DNA of 64,000 nucleotides. It comes from Chiloscyllium plagiosum (taxonomy: Eukaryota). Shown here piece by piece: positions 1 through 60,272 of this stretch. Both the position numbers and the translations under genes were made by a program. The stretch is from positions 7,611,936 through 7,675,935 of the forward strand of contig NC_057749.1 of the NCBI RefSeq assembly GCF_004010195.1. Direction: 5' to 3'. Under the pieces are notes generated by a model. The model saw nothing but the letters and a program-made list of their open reading frames with translations, made no database searches and was not told where the DNA came from. Positions within the stretch are counted from its first letter, which is position 1; each line of letters opens with the position of its first letter.

Positions 1-1064
1 TTTCTTTAGATCCACTGGCAACATTATTTACCCAGTCCACCTGCATATTGAAGTCTCCCATGATCAATGTAACCTTGCCTTTCTGACATTCCTTCTCTAT
101 TTCCCGGTACATGTTGTGTCCCTGGTCCTGACCACTGTTAGGTGGTCTATACACAACTCCCAATTATGTTTTTTTTGCCTTTGTGGTTCCTCAATTCCAC
201 CCACACAGACTCCACACCATCCGACGCTATGTCATTCAATACCATAGATTTAATTTTGTTCTTAACTAACAAGGCAACCCCACCCCCTCTGCCCACTTCT
301 CTGTCTTTTCGATAAATTGAAAAACCATGGAGGTTTAACTGACAGTCCTGACCCCCCTGTAACCAAGTCTCTGTGATGCCTACTACATCATAATCATTCA
401 CTATTATCTGTGCCATTAGTTCATCGGCTTTGTTATGAATGCTACAAGCATTCAGGTAAAGTGCTTAATGCTAACTTCCTTATCATTAGAGATGTTGGAA
501 GTCATATGTCCTAAGTTATCCTTGCTTTTTACTGCATTCTCAGTCTGCCTCAATTTTAAATCCGCCTGGAAACATGCTATCCTGCTGCTTATCTTGCCAT
601 TTACCTCCATACTCCTTGTCGCTTTCACTTTCCCTTCCCCCCAACTCAGACGTTTAAAGTCCTACTGACCACCCTATTTATCCTCTTCGCTAGAACATTG
701 GTACCTGATCGGTTCAGGTGGAGACCGTCCCAACGGTACAGATCACCCCGTTCCAAAACTGATGCCAATGCCCCATGAAGTGGAATCCCTCTTTCCTATA
801 CCAATCCCTTAGCCACGTGTTTACTTGCCTAATTTTCTTGTCCCTATGCCAATTGGCAGGTGGCTCGGGCAGTAAACCGGAGATTATGACCCTCGAGGAC
901 CTGTGCTTCAATTTCCTGCCTAGTGCTTCGTAATGCCCAAACGTGTCCTCCACCCTAGTCTTGCCTATGTTGTTGGTACCAACGTGGACCACAACAACTG
1001 GATCCTCCCCCTCCCGCTCCAATATCCTTTCAAGCCGGTCGGAGATGTCTCGCACCCTGGCACT
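1..1064 (-). mobile_element. CR1 LINE fragment: ORF1 SGNH-esterase domain (714-1064) followed by the start of the ORF2 APE endonuclease (1-~430, frameshifted)
   Basis: ORF 714..1091 reads RVRDISDRLERIL...VVVVHVGTNNIG, typical of the CR1 ORF1 esterase; ORF 147..416 reads YDVVGITETWL...YRKDR..GRGGGVALLVK...ESVWVEL (APE endonuclease). Runs off the window start. Confidence 0.9.
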
Positions 1065-1445
1065 GAAACAGAACCTTTTGTTCCATTCCAACCATCATCC
1101 CAAACTTAACTAGTCCCACCTGCCTGCACTTGGGTCATATCCCTCCAAATATTTCTTATTCATACACTTATCTTTTTAACATTTTAACTGCATCCACCAC
1201 TTCCTCTGGAAGTTCATTCCACCCATGAACCATTCTCTGTGTAAAACAAAATGCCCCTCATGCCTTTTTGAAATCTTTCTCCTCTCACCTTAAAGATATG
1301 CCCTTTAGTCTTGAAATTCTGCACCCGAAGGAATAGACACCTGCCATTCACCTTGTCTATGACCCACATGATTTTATAAACCTTTATAAGGTCACCCCTC
1401 AAGCTCCTATGTCCCAGTGAAAAAACAAGGCCTAGCTTATCCATC
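1065..1445 (-). mobile_element. CR1/HER1 LINE 3' end
   Basis: Translation LFSL..RSLRGDLIKVYKIM..IDKVN is the CR1 ORF2 C-terminus, followed by a 3' UTR matching other CR1 copies in the window. Confidence 0.85.
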
Positions 1446-2680: not shown

Positions 2681-4384
2681 TTCCACTTGTCATAGCAACA
2701 AAGAAAAATCTCAACTGGCTACAAGACAAAACGCCCTTTCCCTCAAAGGAAATCATAGATCTTTCTAGTCATCAGTTGCTATAAGATAAGAAAAAGCAAT
2801 AAAAATCATAGTTTTGCAGGACTCCGATTTTACTATACCTGGCAAGTGATACAATGCCTGTAGGAAATGTGCCAGTAAGAATGAACACAAAACTTAAAGA
2901 ACGTGAGAGCAAGGAGAACCTGAGGATTTTATAGTTGCCACATAGCTGAACAAGGCATAATCTTGAATTACATCTCCCGTCACTGTGCATAGAGTGGATT
3001 GCAGATATTTAGAATGTGTGCGTCAGAATGGTAGTCATAGGATATATAACTACAATTAAAATGGAGATTGAGCCATCAAAATCTTTAAACGTATCCATTC
3101 CTCCCAACACTTACAACTTGTGATTGAACTCGGTCATGAATCAATGCGAGCAACAGCAAATCTCAAATTGCTGATGCATTGTACCTAATAGCTGTAGAGT
3201 GAAGGAATACACTGAAAATGAAGAATGCCAGTCAATAACAAAGCAGTATTCCAACTGAAGGGCTCAGATAATGTAAACTATAAAGACCAATGTCATTTTT
3301 AGTCAAGTTTAGATTCTTGCAAGTTATTATTTTTTATAATATTTTCAAATGTTATCAGTACAGGGACACATTGTTCAGGGTGAAACATAGTTCAGAATCC
3401 TGATAATAAATCTGTCATAGGGAATGTAGCATTGTGACATTATATTTACTTCAGTAAATAATAAAACTCAATTTTAACAGAAAATTGATTTAAGTAGTCG
3501 GGTGGCTTATAAACAAAGATATTATTATGTATATGTTCCATCAGGGAAAAGCAATGCAAAATTTAGGATGTGCTGTAGATGTAATTGCAGCTTATACACA
3601 AGTAAATATGGCATCCACTACCATTTATCTGTTAAGACAGTGCTGTTTCTTTCGACACAAAGTGGATTGTCACAATTATTCTTACACACATCAGTTAAAG
3701 TGCAAACAATCAAAAATGGTATTTATCGACTCTTCTGTGTTTTTGCTTTCATTTTAACACTGACAAATTTGCTGGAGTCACAACGACAGAGCAGCTCCTG
3801 CTATTTTTAGTCCCTTTATAAATGATCTCCCTGAAATTGAAGTCTGTCTGGCAAAGTATAGCTTCCAACAAATCAATACAAAAAAGTTTGAATCCACCAC
3901 AGTAGGGGGAATCAATGAGTGCTCTCTCCCTCTGTCTCTATCTTTCTCCCCTCGCCAGTACCTCTCTTCGAAGAAAACATATCAATTTGACTTTTACGCC
4001 CACGACAGTATAACTGCAGCCAAGCCTGAAGCCAGAAGTTCTTAAGTGGTTCATTAAACCACCGGGGAGCCTGTTAAAGTTAATTTTAGACTTCCTTTAC
4101 CATTAAAAAAAAAATTAACCAGTATTCAGATACTAGGAAGGAGAATACTAGTGCCCCAAAATAAAGAGGGGGCCGGAACTTGATTGAGAGAGTGCAGGTA
4201 TAAGTGCTGGCTGAAAGGTGACTCTGTGGAGTGGGCTTTTAGATTCACATTTTCTATTTCTGACACCCACTCAAAATATATACAAGTGATACTTATCAAT
4301 TTTCCCAAAGAAAACAGTGTTTAGAAGAATGAAGGATTCAATACTGATACAAATGAGATATTGCTTTACAAACATTAATAGGAT

Positions 4385-9616: not shown

Positions 9617-10250
9617 TGAAGATGGCAGCATAGAAGCAGGGTGGAGCTTGGGGATAATCCTTTCTCTTTTTACTTTTCCCCTCTTTTTATTTTGTTTCCA
9701 TTTCCTTTTCTTTTAAAGCCTAGAGGGTCAGGATGAAAGAGGATGGCTGGAGCAGCAGCAATAACAGGATGAGCCAGACATGGCTGCACCCCAGGTGAGG
9801 ATTAGAGCCAAGGCTAACTCCTCCAACCTCCCCACCTCCAGCCCTCGCCCCTCCTCGGCCTGGACTTGCAGGCTGAGCTGAGACGCCAGGCCCACAGCTA
9901 GGTTTGGGCGCCTGAAGGAGCCGAAGCCTTGGTGAAAGGGAGGGAGTGTGGATCGGCAACAGTGGGATGGGGAACAGTAGAGATGGAACCCACGCATCCC
10001 TAGGCCTATGGCTCCAGTTCAGATGTGGTGCTCACGATTGTGACGGTGGAAGAGACCTGTCAGAAACCCCCAGCCAATGCCAAGCAGGGGAGGAACAAAG
10101 AGAAGGGGGAAAAAATGAACTCTATTGCGATAAAATCCTCCATTATATTCAAGATGAGCCGGAGCATGGCAGCACTCAGTTTTATACCACTTTGAAAAAT
10201 CCCTTTTTGCTATATTTCCATATACATGTGACAATAAATCTAAACCAAAC
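9617..10250 (+). mobile_element. Non-coding element with a Rex1/Babar-type 3' tail
   Basis: Begins aagatggcagc, has a pyrimidine tract and a GC-rich body, ends tacatgtgacaataaatctaaa like the Rex1-type fragment ending at 57320. Confidence 0.55.
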
Positions 10251-27495: not shown

Positions 27496-29188
27496 GCGAC
27501 TTTAGTTAGTTCTGTGTTCAGAAATGCAACTCCAAAACACAAAAGTGTCTTGACATTTAGAAAGAATTCTTTTTTGGTTTTCAGGGGCACCTTTATGTTC
27601 TGACCAACCCCTTTATTAGATTAAAGTCACGTGGTAACAAAAAGCTCCTCTATTTATATTAACATATGAAGTATTTGACTCTCTCAGAAGTAGAATTAAA
27701 TCAGTCTCCTCAATTATTATCAAATCTGCATTCAAGTTAAAGCTACATCACAGAAGGAAATCATTAACTTCCTAGACTCTGCAGTTTTTAAATTGTCACA
27801 GGATAACAAGTATAAGGTTAGCAAAAGTACAGGCATAAGGGTAGCTAGAGATTTTGTTTTTGGCCTCCTAAAATATTTGGCACACATTTCTATGCACAAA
27901 GACAATCAACCTAAACATTCCTTCTATAGACTGTGAAGTCACAGAAAATGCACAAAGCTAGAAGTCTATGACTAGGCAGTTCTCATCCTTTTTAGTGTAA
28001 CTTGAATTTAAATCTGGAATTAAGGTCTACTATTAATAGTGTTCATTACAATGTAACAAATACATATACTAGGTCCTGGATCTACACAGCCTTAAGCTTG
28101 AGATTTTACATTAATTTTCAAGGAAATCATTGTTTCAGCGTGGAGATAGCCTGGCTCCCAGTTAGCTGAGCGTTCCTTTGCTGACAGGTCTGAAACCTTT
28201 CCCTCTCATGGACAGCTTCCCTCTACCTTCACCCACTTCTCACACTTCGCAGCAGACGGGTGAAAGGTTATCCGTGGTATGCAAGAATATGACGTATTTA
28301 GTTGAAACTTTATTGCTGGAACAGCACAGCAGGTCAGGCAGCATCCAGGGAACAGGTGATTCGACATTTCGGGCACAGGCCCTTCTTCAGGAATGAGCAG
28401 AGAGTGTTCAGCAGGAGAAGATAAAAGGTAGGGAGGAGGGACTTGGAGGAGGGGCGTTGGAAATGTGATAGGTGGAAAGAGGTCAAGGTGAGGGTGATAG
28501 GTCAGAGTAGGATGGAGGCGGAGAGGTCAAGAAGAAGACTGCAGGTCAGGAAGGCGGTGCCGGGCTGGAGGGATTCGGCTGAGACAAGGGGAGGGGGGAT
28601 GAAGAAACTGGTGAAGTCCAAGTTCATCCCCTGTGGTTGGAGGGTTCCCAGTAGGAAGATAAGACGCTCCTCCTCCGACCGTCGCGTTCTTGTGGTTTGG
28701 CGGTGGATGAGTCCAATGACCTGCATATCCTCGGTGGAGTAGGAGGGGGAGTTGAAATGCTGTGCTACAGGGTGATTGGGTTGATCTGGGCCACCCGGAC
28801 GAACCAACCCAACCACCCTGTAACACTGCCCCCTCCCACTCCACCGAGGATATGCAGGTCATTGGACTCATCCACCGCCAAACCACAACAACCCGACGGT
28901 CGGAGGAGGAGCGTCTTATCTTCCGACTGGGAACCCTCCAACCGCAGGGGATGAACTTGGACTTCACCAGTTTCTTCATCCCCCCTCCCCCCACCTTGTC
29001 TCAGCCGAATCCCTCCAGCCCAGCACCGCCTTCCTGACCTGCAGTCTTCTTCTTGACCTCTCCGCCTCCACCCTACTCCGACCTATCACCCTCACCTTGA
29101 CCTCTTTCCACCTATCACATTTCCAACGCCCCTCCTCCAAGTCCCTCCTCCCTACCCTTTACCTTCTCCTGCTGAACACTCTCTGCTC

Positions 29189-29224
29189 ATTCCTGAAGAA
29201 GGGCCTGTGCCCGAAACGTCGAAT
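29189..29224 (+). ncRNA. Minimal type I hammerhead ribozyme motif in the PLE tail
   Basis: ATTC (stem I) - CTGAAGA - A - GGGC ctgt GCCC (stem II) - GAAA - C GTC - GAAT (stem I'); stem III reduced to the palindrome ACGT. Confidence 0.8.
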
Positions 29225-29290
29225 CTCCTGTTCCCTGGATGCTGCCTGACCTGCTGTGCTGTTCCAGCAATAAAGTTTCAACTTTGATAT

Positions 29291-30214
29291 NNNNNNNNNN
29301 NNNNNNNNNNNNNNNNNNNNNNNNNNNNNNNNNNNNNNNNNNNNNNNNNNNNNNNNNNNNNNNNNNNNNNNNNNNNNNNNNNNNNNNNNNNNNNNNNNNN
29401 NNNNNNNNNNNNNNNNNNNNNNNNNNNNNNNNNNNNNNNNNNNNNNNNNNNNNNNNNNNNNNNNNNNNNNNNNNNNNNNNNNNNNNNNNNNNNNNNNNNN
29501 NNNNNNNNNNNNNNNNNNNNNNNNNNNNNNNNNNNNNNNNNNNNNNNNNNNNNNNNNNNNNNNNNNNNNNNNNNNNNNNNNNNNNNNNNNNNNNNNNNNN
29601 NNNNNNNNNNNNNNNNNNNNNNNNNNNNNNNNNNNNNNNNNNNNNNNNNNNNNNNNNNNNNNNNNNNNNNNNNNNNNNNNNNNNNNNNNNNNNNNNNNNN
29701 NNNNNNNNNNNNNNNNNNNNNNNNNNNNNNNNNNNNNNNNNNNNNNNNNNNNNNNNNNNNNNNNNNNNNNNNNNNNNNNNNNNNNNNNNNNNNNNNNNNN
29801 NNNNNNNNNNNNNNNNNNNNNNNNNNNNNNNNNNNNNNNNNNNNNNNNNNNNNNNNNNNNNNNNNNNNNNNNNNNNNNNNNNNNNNNNNNNNNNNNNNNN
29901 NNNNNNNNNNNNNNNNNNNNNNNNNNNNNNNNNNNNNNNNNNNNNNNNNNNNNNNNNNNNNNNNNNNNNNNNNNNNNNNNNNNNNNNNNNNNNNNNNNNN
30001 NNNNNNNNNNNNNNNNNNNNNNNNNNNNNNNNNNNNNNNNNNNNNNNNNNNNNNNNNNNNNNNNNNNNNNNNNNNNNNNNNNNNNNNNNNNNNNNNNNNN
30101 NNNNNNNNNNNNNNNNNNNNNNNNNNNNNNNNNNNNNNNNNNNNNNNNNNNNNNNNNNNNNNNNNNNNNNNNNNNNNNNNNNNNNNNNNNNNNNNNNNNN
30201 NNNNNNNNNNNNNN
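29291..30214. other. Assembly gap (924 N)
   Basis: Run of n. Confidence 1.
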
Positions 30215-30679
30215 TTCCTGATGAAGGGCTTTTGCCCGAAACATTGATTTTCCTGTTCCTCAGATGCTGCTTGACCTGCTGTGCTTTTCCAGCACCAATC
30301 TGATCTAAATAAACCATTGTCAGGTTGGGCTGTAGACCATGGAGGGATGAATGCTAAAAGAAGGGCCTGTGCCCGAAAGTCGAATCTCCTGTTCCCTGGA
30401 TGCTGCCTGACCTGCTGTGCTGTTCCAGCAATAAAGTTTCAACTTTGATCTCCAGCATCTGCAGACCTCACTTTCTCCTATGACGTATTTAGATCAGCTA
30501 TGGTCCCCCAGAAGCGTGTATTTCCCTATGTGCCTTTTGCTCATCCACACCCGACAGCTTCCCTTCACAACTCCTTCCTGCCCTCCACCTTGTTGTTGCC
30601 TCCTTCTCTCAACCCTCGCAAAGTGAGCTCCATCCCAGCCCCCCAGCTCCTCACCTCTGGCCGATGACTCCCACCGCCT

Positions 30680-37679: not shown

Positions 37680-38925
37680 ATTAAAAATATTCATTTGTGG
37701 GATGAGGGTGTCGCTGGTTGGGCCTAACAGTTATTGTCCATCCCTAGCTGGTGTTGAGAATGTGGCTCTGAGCTGCCTTCTTGAACCGCTGCAGTCCACC
37801 TGATGTGAGTTGGCCCACAATGCCCTTAGGGAGAGAATTCCAGTGACAGTGAAGGAACGTCGATACATTTCCGAGTCAGGATAGTGAGAGGAATGGAAGG
37901 GAACTTGTAGGTGATGGTGTTCCCATATATCTGCAGCACTTGTCCTTCTAGTTGGAAATGGTCGTAGATTTGGAAGATGCTGTAGGAGGATTTCTGCAAT
38001 GCAGCCGCTGCCGAGTGTCAGTGATGGAGGGAGTGGATGTTTGTGAATGTGGTGCCAATCAAACGGGTTGCTTTGTCCTGGATGGTGTCAAGCTTCGAGT
38101 GTATTGTTGGAGCTGCACCCATCCATGCAAGTGGAAAGTATTCTATCGCACTCCTGACTTGTGCCTTGATTGATAGGCTTTGGGAAGTTCGGAGAGGAGT
38201 TATTTGCTGCAGTATTCCTAGACTCTGACCTGTTCCTGTAGCCGCTGTGTTTATGTAGGGAGTCCATTTGAGTTTCAGGTCAATGATAATCCCCAGGATG
38301 TTTATAGTGGAGGATTCAGTGATGGCAACACCATTGAATATCAAGGAGTGGTGACGGTCATAGCTTGGCATTTGTGTGGTGTGAATGTTACTTGTCACGT
38401 GTCAGTTCAAGCCTGGATATTATCCTGATCTTATTGCATCTGAACATGGACTGCTTCAGTATGGGAGGTTGCAAATAGTGCTGAACATCCAAACTTCTGG
38501 CCTTATGATGGAGGGTAAGTAATTGATGAAACAGCTGAATATGTTTGGGCCTAGGACACAACCCTGAGGAACTCCTGCAGAGTGTCCTGAGCTGAGATGG
38601 CTGACCTCCAACAATCACAACCATCTTTCTCCGCATCAGATATGAATCCAACCAGTGGAGAATTTGCCCCCGACACCCATTGATTCCAGTTTTGCTAAGG
38701 CTCCTTGATGCCACGCTCTGTCGAATGTAAGCTTGATGTCTAGGGCTGTCACTTTCACCTCACCTCTGGAATTCAGCTGTTTTGTCCATATTTGAACTGA
38801 GGTTGTAATGAGGTCAGGAAATGAGTAGGCCTGATGGAACCCAAGCTGGGTAGCAGTGAGCAGGTTCTGCTTGATAGCACTGTTGATGACACCTTCCATC
38901 TCTTTACTGATGATCGCGAGTGAAT
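37680..38925 (-). mobile_element. CR1/L2-group LINE, RT through 3' end, frameshifted (clade not resolved)
   Basis: QLGF...DLIT...ALDIKLTFDRAWHQGALAKL and KAQVRSAIEYFPLAW...KLDTIQDKATRLIG. Confidence 0.9.
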
Positions 38926-39479
38926 GTTCTGCCAACCTGGGTTTGAATCCCAACATGGCAATGTTTAGATTAACATTTACTGTGCTTGACAAAAGTGGTA
39001 GGGAGTTATCTCCTTGAAGCACAGTCAACGTGGTTTAGGGACACTCACTGTGCTGTTAGTATTCTAACCAATAAAAATTCTAGGGGATCTTTTATACAGC
39101 AAGTAGATGGTACCTCACTTTGTATCTGAAAATATTATGGACCATGTGTAACTCCTCAGAATTGCACTAATATGTTCAGCCTACATTGTTGTGCTCAATG
39201 ACTAGAGTGGGGTTTGAACCCAAAGACTCAGATGCAGTAGTACTAATGCCACCAAGCCATGGTTGACAACAATGTTATTAGCCATTAATCCATTTTGCTG
39301 GTTTGTTTCAAAGATTAGTACAGTTAACCACACTGCCATTCATGGACATATTTATGTTCTCATTCACGGCCTACTTAATAATTGGAATGACTCACAGATT
39401 GTTTTGGTGAATAAACATATCAAGTGTCACTTAACGAAGGTAGACAAGTGGAGCCTTGATCGAATTAAATGATTTATAA

Positions 39480-59238: not shown

Positions 59239-59486
59239 TTCTGGATCAGTGGTGCTGGAAGAGCACAGCAGTTCAGGCAGCATCCAATGAGCAACGAAAT
59301 CGATGTTTCGGGCAAAAGCCCTTCATCAGGAATAAAGGCAGTGAGCCTGAAGCGTGGAGAGATAAACTAGGGGTCCACATTGATGCCCTGGGGTTGAAGT
59401 GTTCCAAGGCGGAAGATGAGGCGTTCTTCCTCCAGGCGTCTGGTGGTGAGGGAGCGGCGGTGAAGGAGGCCCAGGACCTCCATGTC
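59239..59486 (-). mobile_element. Short PLE 3' insertion (GIY-YIG C-terminus plus hammerhead-bearing tail)
   Basis: Minus strand encodes DMEVLGLLHRRSLTTRRLEEERLIFRLGTLQPQGINVD; probable TSD atgtca(a/c)tatgg at 59227-59238 and 59482-59493. Confidence 0.88.
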
Positions 59487-60137: not shown

Positions 60138-60272
60138 TACCTTCCTGATGAAGAGCTCCGACCCGAAATGTCAATTTTCCTGCTCCTCGGATGCTGCCTG
60201 ACCCGCTGTACTTTTCCAGCAACACATTTTCAACTCTGATCTCCAGCATCTGCAGGTCTCTCTGTCTCCACA
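60138..60272 (+). mobile_element. PLE tail mini-element starting at its hammerhead, with a ~15-bp TSD
   Basis: ttcCTGATGAagagctccgacccGAAAtgtc...; flanks gaatacctagggtac (60122-60136) and gaatacctaggtac (60273-60286). Confidence 0.78.

What the first reader, a model, noticed from the sequence alone, without database searches (positions are those of the whole stretch)
29189..29224. Intact minimal hammerhead ribozyme in a young shark Penelope tail
Seen: all core nucleotides are present (CUGAAGA, GAAA, GUC triplet), with a 4-bp stem I (ATTC/GAAT), a 4-bp stem II (GGGC/GCCC), one extra A after A9 and a loop-less palindromic stem III (ACGT). The mirror copy at ~28361-28396(-) has GAAATGTC, a CpG decay. 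Established: PLE pseudo-LTRs carry minimal type I hammerheads thought to cleave as dimers. Inference: this copy, possibly with the same-strand copy at ~30358-30385, could self-cleave in any + strand transcript crossing the locus.
Basis: partly seen in the sequence, partly recalled or inferred. Interest (0 to 1): 0.7.

Follow-up and report, generated by a model that had tools for sequence, protein, structure and literature searches.

The report
Penelope-element minimal hammerhead, inert here
The 36-base sequence is a genuine minimal hammerhead-ribozyme motif in the tail of a very abundant Penelope-like jumping gene, a kind of motif described in 2014, and at this spot it sits in a dead hairpin-shaped copy where it is unlikely to cut anything.

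Summary
It is the only full match to a minimal-hammerhead descriptor in the 64 kb window. None appeared in 0 of 1000 dinucleotide shuffles.

The motif lies 156 nt past the stop codon of an RT + GIY-YIG ORF, in an extremely abundant Penelope-like element (PLE) family. It is identical to the family's majority sequence: 54 of 93 sampled tails.

This is the min-HHR class of Cervera and de la Pena 2014. No Rfam hammerhead model detects it.

- The proposed partner at 30358-30385 lacks the CUGANGA box and has a 1-nt deletion in the helix III palindrome.
- The copy sits in a ~490-nt inverted repeat. A + strand transcript would pair 35 of 36 motif bases with the antisense copy.
- The predicted double-hammerhead dimer is no more stable than two monomers.
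- RNA reads run across 29220/29221 without a pile of ends.

Verdict: a new member of a known kind, and probably inert at this locus.

The parts
29189..29224 (+). Intact minimal type I hammerhead motif. Helix I 29189-29192/29221-29224, CUGAAGA 29193-29199, bulged A 29200, helix II 29201-29204/29209-29212, loop 29205-29208, GAAA 29213-29216, ACGU palindrome 29216-29219, C17 29220.
28359..28394 (-). Mirror copy of the motif on the other arm of the fold-back. C15.2 is changed to U (GAAATGTC), so the helix III palindrome is broken.
28796..29290 (+). 5'-truncated PLE copy (+ arm): last ~80 codons of the GIY-YIG endonuclease ORF, 3' UTR, hammerhead and tail. It ends ...CAACTTTGATAT at the assembly gap.
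28302..28795 (-). Inverted 5'-truncated PLE copy (- arm), ending at ...GTTTCAACT without the 30-nt extension. It is 96-97% identical to the + arm.
28756..29037 (+). Open frame holding the C-terminal end of the PLE ORF (...EERLIFRLGTLQPQGMNLDF...). The stop codon lies 156 nt before CUGAAGA.
29269..29274 (+). AATAAA in the tail. RNA reads carry non-templated A runs starting after about 29283.
29291..30214 (.). Run of 924 N. Other copies have N runs of 89, 788 and at least 1500 at the same repeat fork, so this is most likely a scaffold gap.
30215..30249 (+). Older-subfamily hammerhead (CUGAUGA-A-GGGC-UUUU-GCCC-GAAA) with both CpGs decayed to ACATTG. Its helix I 5' strand runs into the gap.
30358..30478 (+). 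5'-truncated tail of the young subfamily with the 30-nt terminal extension. It has no CUGANGA box and C15.2 is deleted (GAAAGTC), so it is not a hammerhead.
28288..28301 (.). Left copy of the 13-14 nt target-site duplication TATGACGTATTTAG.
   Evidence: family D7
30479..30492 (.). Right copy of the target-site duplication.
   Evidence: family D7
59306..59329 (-). Core of another older-subfamily hammerhead (…GAAACATCGA), with CpG decay in the palindrome.
60145..60168 (+). Decayed older hammerhead core (helix II GAGC/ACCC, GAAATGTCAA).

Best explanation
The 36 nt are a real, sequence-intact minimal hammerhead (min-HHR) of the kind carried near the 3' end (pLTR) of canonical endonuclease-positive Penelope-like elements.

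Here it belongs to a dead-on-arrival insertion bounded by a 13-14 nt target-site duplication. The insertion holds an inverted 5'-truncated copy joined head-to-head to a 5'-truncated + copy, then an unresolved gap, then further tail fragments.

As a monomer the motif can form helices I and II but not helix III. Cutting after C17 (29220) would need a second complete copy to build a 4-bp ACGU/ACGU helix III (a double hammerhead), help from the element's protein, or both.

At this locus no competent same-strand partner exists, and a read-through transcript would fold into a ~470-bp hairpin that buries the motif. The copy is therefore most likely inert. Its intactness reflects recent copying from a master element, not selection at this site.

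Shown: the motif, its non-random nature, its family context and the fold-back. Inferred: dimer or protein-assisted catalysis in the master RNA, and inertness at this locus.
For: Motif
- It matches at the stated coordinates and is the only hit in the window; 0 of 1000 shuffles gave a hit.
- It has all four features that Cervera and de la Pena list as not imposed by their descriptor (PMC4209133, text read): a nucleotide between A9 and 10.1, a G10.1-C11.1 pair, palindromic 15.2/16.2, and family-level occurrence.

PLE context
- In L053 an 845-aa open frame has RVT_1 at 310-493 (33.1 bits, cut-off 29.6), then GIY-YIG at 729-759 (21.4 bits, cut-off 22.6). The hammerhead box starts 156 nt after its stop.
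- The window's ORF fragment is the same C-terminus.
- An inverted 5'-truncated copy, a 30-nt terminal extension and a TSD are present. These are the features described for PLE insertions in PMC8557442 (passages).

Family
- 40 of 40 scored tails are 99-100% identical.
- 54 of 93 sampled tails are identical to the window over 84 nt.
- Differences between the three subfamily sequences inside the 36 nt fall at N7, loop 2, 10.4 (C or U, both pair with G) and 1.3 (U to A, which creates a pair). None falls in the core.
- An unrelated family in L040 keeps the boxes, the bulge and ACGU with a different 6-bp helix II.

Inertness
- Fold of 28290-29290: -996 kcal/mol, 468 cross-arm pairs, 35 of 36 motif bases paired to the mirror copy.
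- Helix I pair probability falls from about 0.3 in 76 nt of context to 0.03 in 152 nt and 0.002 in 295 nt.
- The double hammerhead scores -13.1 kcal/mol, against -14.2 for two monomers and -18.3 for an alternative dimer.
- Run X20 (RNA raw reads, 353 laid): depth is continuous across 29220/29221, and the table of places where molecules begin or end is empty.
Against: - No Rfam hammerhead model scores the sequence, even at E<=10 on 76 nt. Membership rests on a hand-written descriptor and the literature, not on a curated model.
- Helix II is only 4 bp, and helix I is 4 bp in this subfamily but 2 bp in the older ones. The fold is therefore weak.
- There is no strict covariation within the family: helix II is invariant apart from one wobble change.
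- The downstream tail (GGATGCTGCCTGACCTGCTG...) is about as conserved as the hammerhead, so conservation is not specific to the ribozyme.
- A direct upstream pLTR copy carrying a second hammerhead was found in 0 of 5 long-ORF loci examined; one of them has gaps.
- The RNA library was poly(A) single-cell, and only about 2% of the run was read. It could easily miss 5'-OH or cyclic-phosphate ends. Because reads come from the whole family, it says nothing about this locus alone.
- The 924-N gap could hide a complete same-strand copy.
Confidence: 0.85

Rival explanations
1. One reading: the copy is a working ribozyme at this locus. It cuts any + strand transcript at 29220/29221, possibly by pairing with the same-strand copy at 30358-30385.
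For: - All core nucleotides are present, and the isolated 36-mer folds into helices I and II as its minimum-energy structure at -7.1 kcal/mol.
- Family RNA exists on both strands.
Against: - The monomer cannot form helix III.
- 30358-30385 lacks CUGANGA and C15.2.
- 30215-30249 has ACAU in place of ACGU.
- The fold-back pairs 35 of 36 motif bases with the mirror copy.
- The double hammerhead is not favoured.
- There is no pile of read ends.
- Published min-HHRs show no monomer cleavage and low dimer activity (PMC4209133). For the Anolis element no RNA-seq ends were seen at the site (PMC11167929, passages).
Confidence: 0.05
2. The sequence is conserved as part of the PLE 3' cis-element, for example for protein binding or for start of reverse transcription. 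The hammerhead likeness is retained but catalysis plays no part in the element's life cycle.
For: - The tail downstream of the motif is conserved about as well as the motif across subfamilies.
- Hammerhead catalytic mutants did not affect insertion by the Anolis PLE protein in vitro (PMC11167929, passage).
- PLE clades without canonical hammerheads proliferate well (PMC8557442, passage).
Against: - Changes between subfamilies avoid every core position, and one of them creates a helix I pair.
- A different family keeps the boxes with a different helix II.
- The Anolis motif does cleave when protein is added, and C3/G8 mutants behave as expected for a hammerhead.
Confidence: 0.15
3. Chance resemblance to a hammerhead in a C/T-rich repeat.
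For: - No Rfam model matches.
- The stems are short.
Against: - 0 of 1000 shuffles give a hit.
- The same architecture recurs in several subfamilies and in an unrelated family.
- The position relative to a PLE ORF matches the literature.
Confidence: 0.01

Closest known systems
Minimal hammerheads (min-HHR) in the pLTRs of metazoan Penelope-like elements (Cervera and de la Pena 2014, PMC4209133; main text read)
   Same: - Type I topology with no helix III or loop 3.
- Palindromic 15.x/16.x (ACGU).
- An unpaired nucleotide between A9 and G10.1, and a G10.1-C11.1 pair.
- Short helix I (4 bp).
- Location near the 3' end of an RT + GIY-YIG element.
- Massive genomic copy number, mostly as single motifs in truncated copies, some as nearby pairs on opposite strands.
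   Different: - Helix II is 4 bp with a 4-nt loop, not the 7-8 bp reported for Schistosoma families.
- Older subfamilies here have only 2 bp of helix I.
- The host lineage (shark-like genome) is not named in that paper's main text; its supplements were not opened.
- The youngest copies here are nearly invariant, as that paper reports for D. virilis, unlike the high variability it reports elsewhere.
Hammerhead of the Anolis carolinensis Poseidon element PAc (PMC11167929; passages only)
   Same: [quoted passage not shown]
- No RNA-seq reads starting or ending at the predicted cut site, as here.
   Different: - In PAc the ORF starts inside stem II and the cut site is 26 bp past the start codon. 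Here the motif was seen only 156 nt downstream of the ORF stop.
- Protein-assisted cleavage is shown for PAc and untested here.
Canonical type I hammerheads (Rfam Hammerhead_1 and relatives; newt satellite 2, Schistosoma Sm-alpha)
   Same: - The same catalytic core.
- Thought to act as double hammerheads when helix III is short.
   Different: - No helix III or loop 3 at all, and no loop-loop tertiary contacts.
- Not detected by any Rfam hammerhead model.
Animal non-LTR retrozymes (PMC7229834, search listing only; bioRxiv 10.64898/2026.07.22.740005, abstract and passages)
   Same: - Hammerhead-bearing, PLE-related non-coding sequence.
- The preprint reports retrozymes in the one chondrichthyan genome it sampled.
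   Different: - Retrozymes are head-to-tail tandem repeats in which each unit has a complete hammerhead.
- Here the same-strand neighbours are a decayed older copy and a truncated tail, and the main arrangement is inverted.

Membership tests
PLE min-HHR (Cervera and de la Pena 2014) | Catalytic boxes CUGANGA and GAAA, with U16.1 and H17 | tested here: met
   CUGAAGA 29193-29199, GAAA 29213-29216, U 29219, C 29220
PLE min-HHR (Cervera and de la Pena 2014) | Unpaired nucleotide between A9 and 10.1 | tested here: met
   A at 29200. It is present in all three subfamilies, and as U in an unrelated family.
PLE min-HHR (Cervera and de la Pena 2014) | G10.1-C11.1 base pair closing helix II | tested here: met
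   G 29201 pairs with C 29212
PLE min-HHR (Cervera and de la Pena 2014) | No helix III or loop 3; positions 15.x/16.x palindromic so that two copies can pair | tested here: met
   ACGU at 29216-29219. The mirror copy (AUGU) and the 30215 copy (ACAU) fail this test.
PLE min-HHR (Cervera and de la Pena 2014) | Short helix I (4-5 bp) | tested here: met
   4 bp, ATTC/GAAT. Older subfamilies have GATT and hence only 2 bp.
PLE min-HHR (Cervera and de la Pena 2014) | Sits in the terminal repeat (pLTR) of a PLE, with a copy in each flanking repeat | tested here: inconclusive
   It is always found about 156 nt 3' of the RT/GIY-YIG ORF. No upstream direct copy was seen in 0 of 5 long-ORF loci; one of these has gaps.
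PLE min-HHR (Cervera and de la Pena 2014) | Self-cleavage as a dimer | not testable with these tools
   Only energies were computed: double hammerhead -13.1 kcal/mol against -14.2 for two monomers.
Rfam hammerhead families (Hammerhead_1, _3, _II, HH9, HH10) | Reaches the family's gathering score | tested here: not met
   0 matches at gathering score over the window. No hammerhead match at E<=10 on 3.1 kb or on 76 nt.
Endonuclease-positive Penelope-like element | Single ORF with reverse transcriptase followed by a C-terminal GIY-YIG endonuclease | tested here: met
   RVT_1 scores 33.1 bits, above its cut-off of 29.6. GIY-YIG scores 21.4 bits, just under its cut-off of 22.6, but the motif ...IIYCIRCSRCGHLYIGETGR... 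is visible.
Endonuclease-positive Penelope-like element | Insertion anatomy: 5' truncation, an adjacent inverted copy, a 30-40 bp extension at one end, and a TSD | tested here: met
   Inverted arms are 97% alike. The 30-nt extension CTCCAGC...TCTCCT is present only at the right end. The TSD is 13-14 nt.
Animal non-LTR retrozyme | Head-to-tail tandem units, each with a complete hammerhead | tested here: not met
   No tandem of complete units is present. The same-strand neighbours are decayed or truncated.

The most novel reading that the evidence does not exclude
The hammerhead is under ongoing selection in a currently active PLE lineage.

Across three successive subfamilies, every change inside the 36 nt falls at a free position or improves pairing. 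The youngest subfamily is the one still amplifying: 40 of 40 scored tails are 99-100% identical, and some units are 100% identical over more than 1.5 kb. It gained a fully paired 4-bp helix I through a single U-to-A change at position 1.3.

If ribozyme strength tracks amplification success, this family would be a natural system for testing what PLE hammerheads are for. The frequent fold-back copies might also feed hairpin RNA into small-RNA pathways.
Probability: 0.15. Interest if true: 0.5.

Novelty: new member of a known kind. Interest (0 to 1): 0.2.

Why it matters
It adds a cartilaginous-fish-type genome to the hosts in which Penelope-like elements carry minimal hammerheads. It also shows a very young, nearly invariant subfamily, which is convenient material for cleavage assays. 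It shows that Rfam-based scans miss this ribozyme class entirely. It does not change what is known: the class, its location and the dimer idea were published in 2014, and the biological role of these ribozymes remains open. This one locus cannot address that question.

Tried and rejected
- Rfam (Infernal) at gathering score on the whole window, and at E<=10 on 3.1 kb and on 76 nt: no hammerhead match. Only microRNA-like chance hits on the fold-back centre appeared.
- My first fixed-spacing DNA pattern had one N too many and found nothing. A script replaced it.
- A fuzzy-regex scan timed out. blastn plus local alignment replaced it.
- The look-up of sequencing runs: no RNA holder listed. 18 rows from 7 studies and 4 coded organism labels hold the stretch. 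This is not used as evidence on expression.
- Of the four laid runs, X21 laid 0 reads. X15 and X1 are contigs and cannot show RNA ends.
- Search for a full pLTR-ORF-pLTR unit: 5 long-ORF loci (L057, L059-L062) show only the 3' hammerhead.
- I considered that the sequence after '...GATAT' (region u) was the element's 5' UTR. I rejected this because it matches none of the long-ORF copies.
- I considered that the ~800-nt fold-back units were complete insertions with TSDs. None was found: the longest shared flank strings are 3-7 nt.
- Pfam scan of 70 window ORFs of at least 90 aa, leaving out 9 of 79 (8 lie within the PLE arms at 28209-29246; 1 overlaps another at 9731-10018). It found only transposon fragments: Exo_endo_phos 150-464(-), GDSL-like 717-1094(-), weak RVT_1 38639-39034(-). 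No host gene was identified, so whether the locus is transcribed is unknown.
- Paper search 'Penelope + shark + ribozyme' gave 2 papers, neither describing shark PLE hammerheads.
- Earlier scan notes by place and by sequence were empty.

Full report
**Observation**

Window 29189-29224(+) reads ATTCCTGAAGAAGGGCCTGTGCCCGAAACGTCGAAT. In hammerhead numbering:
- helix I 5' strand: ATTC
- C3-A9: CUGAAGA
- one extra A
- helix II: GGGC/GCCC, closed by CUGU
- G12-A15.1: GAAA
- C15.2, G16.2, U16.1
- C17 at 29220
- helix I 3' strand: GAAU

There is no loop 3. A15.1-C-G-U16.1 is the palindrome ACGU.

I wrote a descriptor requiring the boxes, an optional bulge, helix II of at least 4 bp, palindromic 15.x/16.x, H17 and helix I of at least 4 bp. 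It finds one hit on both strands of the 64 kb window, at exactly these coordinates. It finds none in 1000 dinucleotide-preserving shuffles; with helix I relaxed to at least 2 bp, 4 of 1000 shuffles have a hit.

- The mirror copy lies at 28359-28394(-). It does carry GAAATGTC, a CpG-to-TpG change at C15.2 that breaks the palindrome.
- The 'same-strand copy' at 30358-30385 is a 5'-truncated tail that starts inside the motif. It has no helix I 5' strand and no CUGANGA box, and it reads GAAAGTC with C15.2 deleted.
- Between the two lies an older-subfamily hammerhead at 30215-30249 (CUGAUGA-A-GGGC-UUUU-GCCC-GAAA). Both of its CpGs have decayed to ACATTG.

**What the element is**

The motif lies 156 nt downstream of the stop of an open frame (28756-29037) that ends ...EERLIFRLGTLQPQGMNLDF. 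Longer copies elsewhere in the same assembly give more of this frame.
- L033 has a 357-aa frame with ...YKPTDSHSYLDYTSSHP..., a CX4CX2C stretch, and IIYCIRCSRCGHLYIGETGR. Pfam GIY-YIG scores E 4.4e-4, 20.9 bits, cut-off 22.6.
- L053 has an 845-aa frame with RVT_1 at 310-493 (E 6e-8, 33.1 bits, cut-off 29.6), followed by GIY-YIG at 729-759 (21.4 bits). The hammerhead box again starts 156 nt after the stop.

RT followed by a C-terminal GIY-YIG endonuclease is the architecture of canonical EN+ Penelope-like elements. The cysteine motif in the linker is the trait that PMC8557442 (passages) ascribes to the Neptune and Nematis clades. No tree was made, so the clade call is an inference.

The family is enormous.
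- The 141-nt tail has 556 first-look candidates; 40 of 40 scored are 99-100% identical.
- The 357-aa protein has 206,263 first-look candidates; 114 scored gave 115 matches at 81-100% identity.
- The assembly has 3.56 Gb in 101,977 contigs.

I did not verify that the host is a shark.

**The locus**
- A 13-14 nt direct repeat, TATGACGTATTTAG, at 28288-28301 and 30479-30492 brackets the whole structure.
- Inside it, 28302-28795(-) and 28796-29290(+) are two 5'-truncated copies joined head to head, with their tails facing outward. The arms are 97% complementary by the repeat finder. My alignment shows 19 substitutions and 4 indels over about 490 nt.
- The + arm ends ...CAACTTTGATAT at a run of 924 N. 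In three other loci, N runs of 89, 788 and at least 1500 start at the same base. This fits scaffold gaps at a repeat fork.
- After the gap come the decayed older tail, 57 nt, and the truncated young tail. That tail carries the 30-nt extension CTCCAGCATCTGCAGACCTCACTTTCTCCT next to the TSD.
- The right-hand composite recurs at two other loci with different flanks, at 97% and 95% identity. One of them also has a gap on its left.

An inverted 5'-truncated copy, a 30-40 bp extension at one end only, and trouble for short-read assemblies are all traits that PMC8557442 describes for PLE insertions. The gap means the full content of the insertion is unknown.

**The family's hammerhead**

I collected 99 tail intervals from the window and the loci then held, leaving out loci that duplicate others. 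Of these, 93 cover the motif and give 35 distinct sequences. 54 are identical to the window's copy over 84 nt.

A relaxed descriptor over 256,120 bases of window plus loci finds 73 motifs, and 58 are identical to the window's. These samples were retrieved with the window's own sequences and so lean towards its subfamily.

Three subfamily sequences can be read:
- older: CUGAUGA-A-GGGC-UUUU-GCCC-GAAACGUC-GAUU
- intermediate: CUGAAGA-A-GGG(C/U)-UUAU-GCCC-...-GAUU
- young: CUGAAGA-A-GGGC-CUGU-GCCC-...-GAAU

Their differences fall at four kinds of position:
- N7
- two loop-2 positions
- 10.4, where C or U both pair with G
- 1.3, where U to A turns a U-U mismatch into a pair and lengthens helix I from 2 to 4 bp

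None falls in the core. An unrelated family in L040 keeps the boxes, a bulged U and ACGU with a different 6-bp helix II, GUUACC/GGUGAC.

Individual old copies decay mostly at the two CpGs of ACGTCG, as expected for unselected genomic copies. Two results cut against ribozyme-specific selection:
- helix II shows no strict compensatory change within the family
- the tail downstream (GGATGCTGCCTGACCTGCTG...) is about as conserved as the motif

**Would it cut here?**

The isolated 36-mer folds into helices I and II as its minimum-energy structure at -7.1 kcal/mol. The helix I pair probability then falls as context is added:
- about 0.3 in 76 nt of context
- 0.03 in 152 nt
- 0.002 in 295 nt

For two 36-mers:
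- double hammerhead (intramolecular helix II, intermolecular ACGU/ACGU helix III and helices I): -13.1 kcal/mol
- two separate monomers: -14.2 kcal/mol
- an alternative dimer: -18.3 kcal/mol

So the active dimer is not favoured. This agrees with the published literature. PMC4209133 reports no monomer cleavage and low dimer activity. PMC11167929 (passages) reports that the Anolis PLE hammerhead cut only when the element's protein was added.

At this locus neither same-strand neighbour is a competent partner. A + strand RNA spanning 28290-29290 folds into one hairpin of -996 kcal/mol with 468 cross-arm pairs, and 35 of the 36 motif bases pair with the mirror copy. The antisense arm is transcribed first, so the motif would be captured as it emerges.

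**RNA evidence**

One lay of reads was possible.
- Run X20 (RNA, poly(A) single-cell library, about 2% of the run read) laid 353 reads at 95% identity or more on 28796-29290, in both directions.
- Depth rises steadily towards the 3' end and is continuous across the predicted cut. For 29204-29220 against 29221-29237 the figures are 54.2 and 58.6 in one direction, 101.6 and 121.5 in the other.
- The table of places where many molecules begin or end is empty.
- X21 laid nothing. X15 and X1 are contigs.
- Within the 36 nt, only 29205 (loop 2) varies in 10% or more of reads.

These reads come from the whole family, and this library type is poorly suited to catching ribozyme ends. The result therefore gives no support for cleavage but is not strong evidence against it. 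The Anolis study likewise found no RNA-seq ends at its site.

**Comparison and novelty**

The motif meets each sequence-level trait that defines the PLE min-HHR class. It fails every Rfam hammerhead model, which need helix III. It is not a retrozyme, because there is no tandem of complete units.

I did not find an upstream direct pLTR copy in any of 5 long-ORF loci. The 'both flanking repeats' trait is therefore untested rather than met.

On whether this is already in print:
- A full-text search for Penelope + shark + ribozyme returned nothing on shark PLE hammerheads.
- A 2026 preprint reports retrozymes in the one chondrichthyan it sampled (passages).
- A 2017 review states that all available PLE sequences carry hammerhead motifs (passage).
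- Lunse et al. 2017, on dimeric PLE hammerhead variants, is recalled only and was not seen.
- Three earlier notes of this scan on other pieces of the same genome reach the same reading.

Verdict: a correct catch of a known kind, a new member at most, and probably inert at this site.

Noticed in passing
L032:691-2641 and the matching parts of L009-L031 (own assembly): In at least 20 of the 30 loci fetched with the tail, a short fold-back (extension + tail(-), 71 nt, tail(+) ending GATAT) is followed by a non-coding AT-rich stretch. That stretch is 100.000% identical between loci over 89 to at least 1542 nt. It then breaks, at a different point in each locus, into reverse-complement PLE ORF sequence. 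No TSD was found, and the stretch matches none of the long-ORF copies. Possible readings are template-switch chimeras from one master RNA, very recent activity, or a gap-filling artefact.
   Followed up: partly
window 29269-29290; loci: AATAAA lies at 29269-29274. 30 RNA reads of run X20 carry non-templated A runs beginning after about 29283, and 51 reads continue into the 30-nt extension. Many genomic copies, including the window's - arm, end at ...GTTTCAAC(T) without the extension. The tail therefore has two alternative 3' ends, one near a likely poly(A) site.
   Followed up: partly
window 30215-30400; L036:1501-1686; L037: The composite 'older tail + 57 nt + truncated tail' recurs at two other loci with different flanks, at 97% and 95% identity. 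The third piece is of a different subfamily in each. L036 also has an N gap on its left. This suggests the composite itself is copied.
   Followed up: partly
window 28741-28838: The centre of the fold-back gives sub-threshold microRNA-precursor hits in Rfam (mir-3940, 30.2 bits against a gathering score of 84). This is simply because it is a hairpin, and it is not evidence of a microRNA.
   Followed up: no
window 150-464(-), 717-1094(-), 38639-39034(-): Fragments of other retroelements are present: an AP-type endonuclease (Exo_endo_phos, E 4.9e-9), a GDSL-lipase-like ORF (E 8.2e-10) and a weak RVT_1 match. No host gene was recognised among 70 ORFs of at least 90 aa.
   Followed up: no
window 36806, 37227, 49882 and nearby: Further decayed tail fragments share the box GATGCTGCCTGACCTGCTG. 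This box is conserved across subfamilies at least as well as the hammerhead.
   Followed up: no
L057 (reverse complement) 3786-4303: The 5' part of an 893-aa PLE open frame contains about four tandem 120-nt repeats that are 97-99% alike.
   Followed up: no
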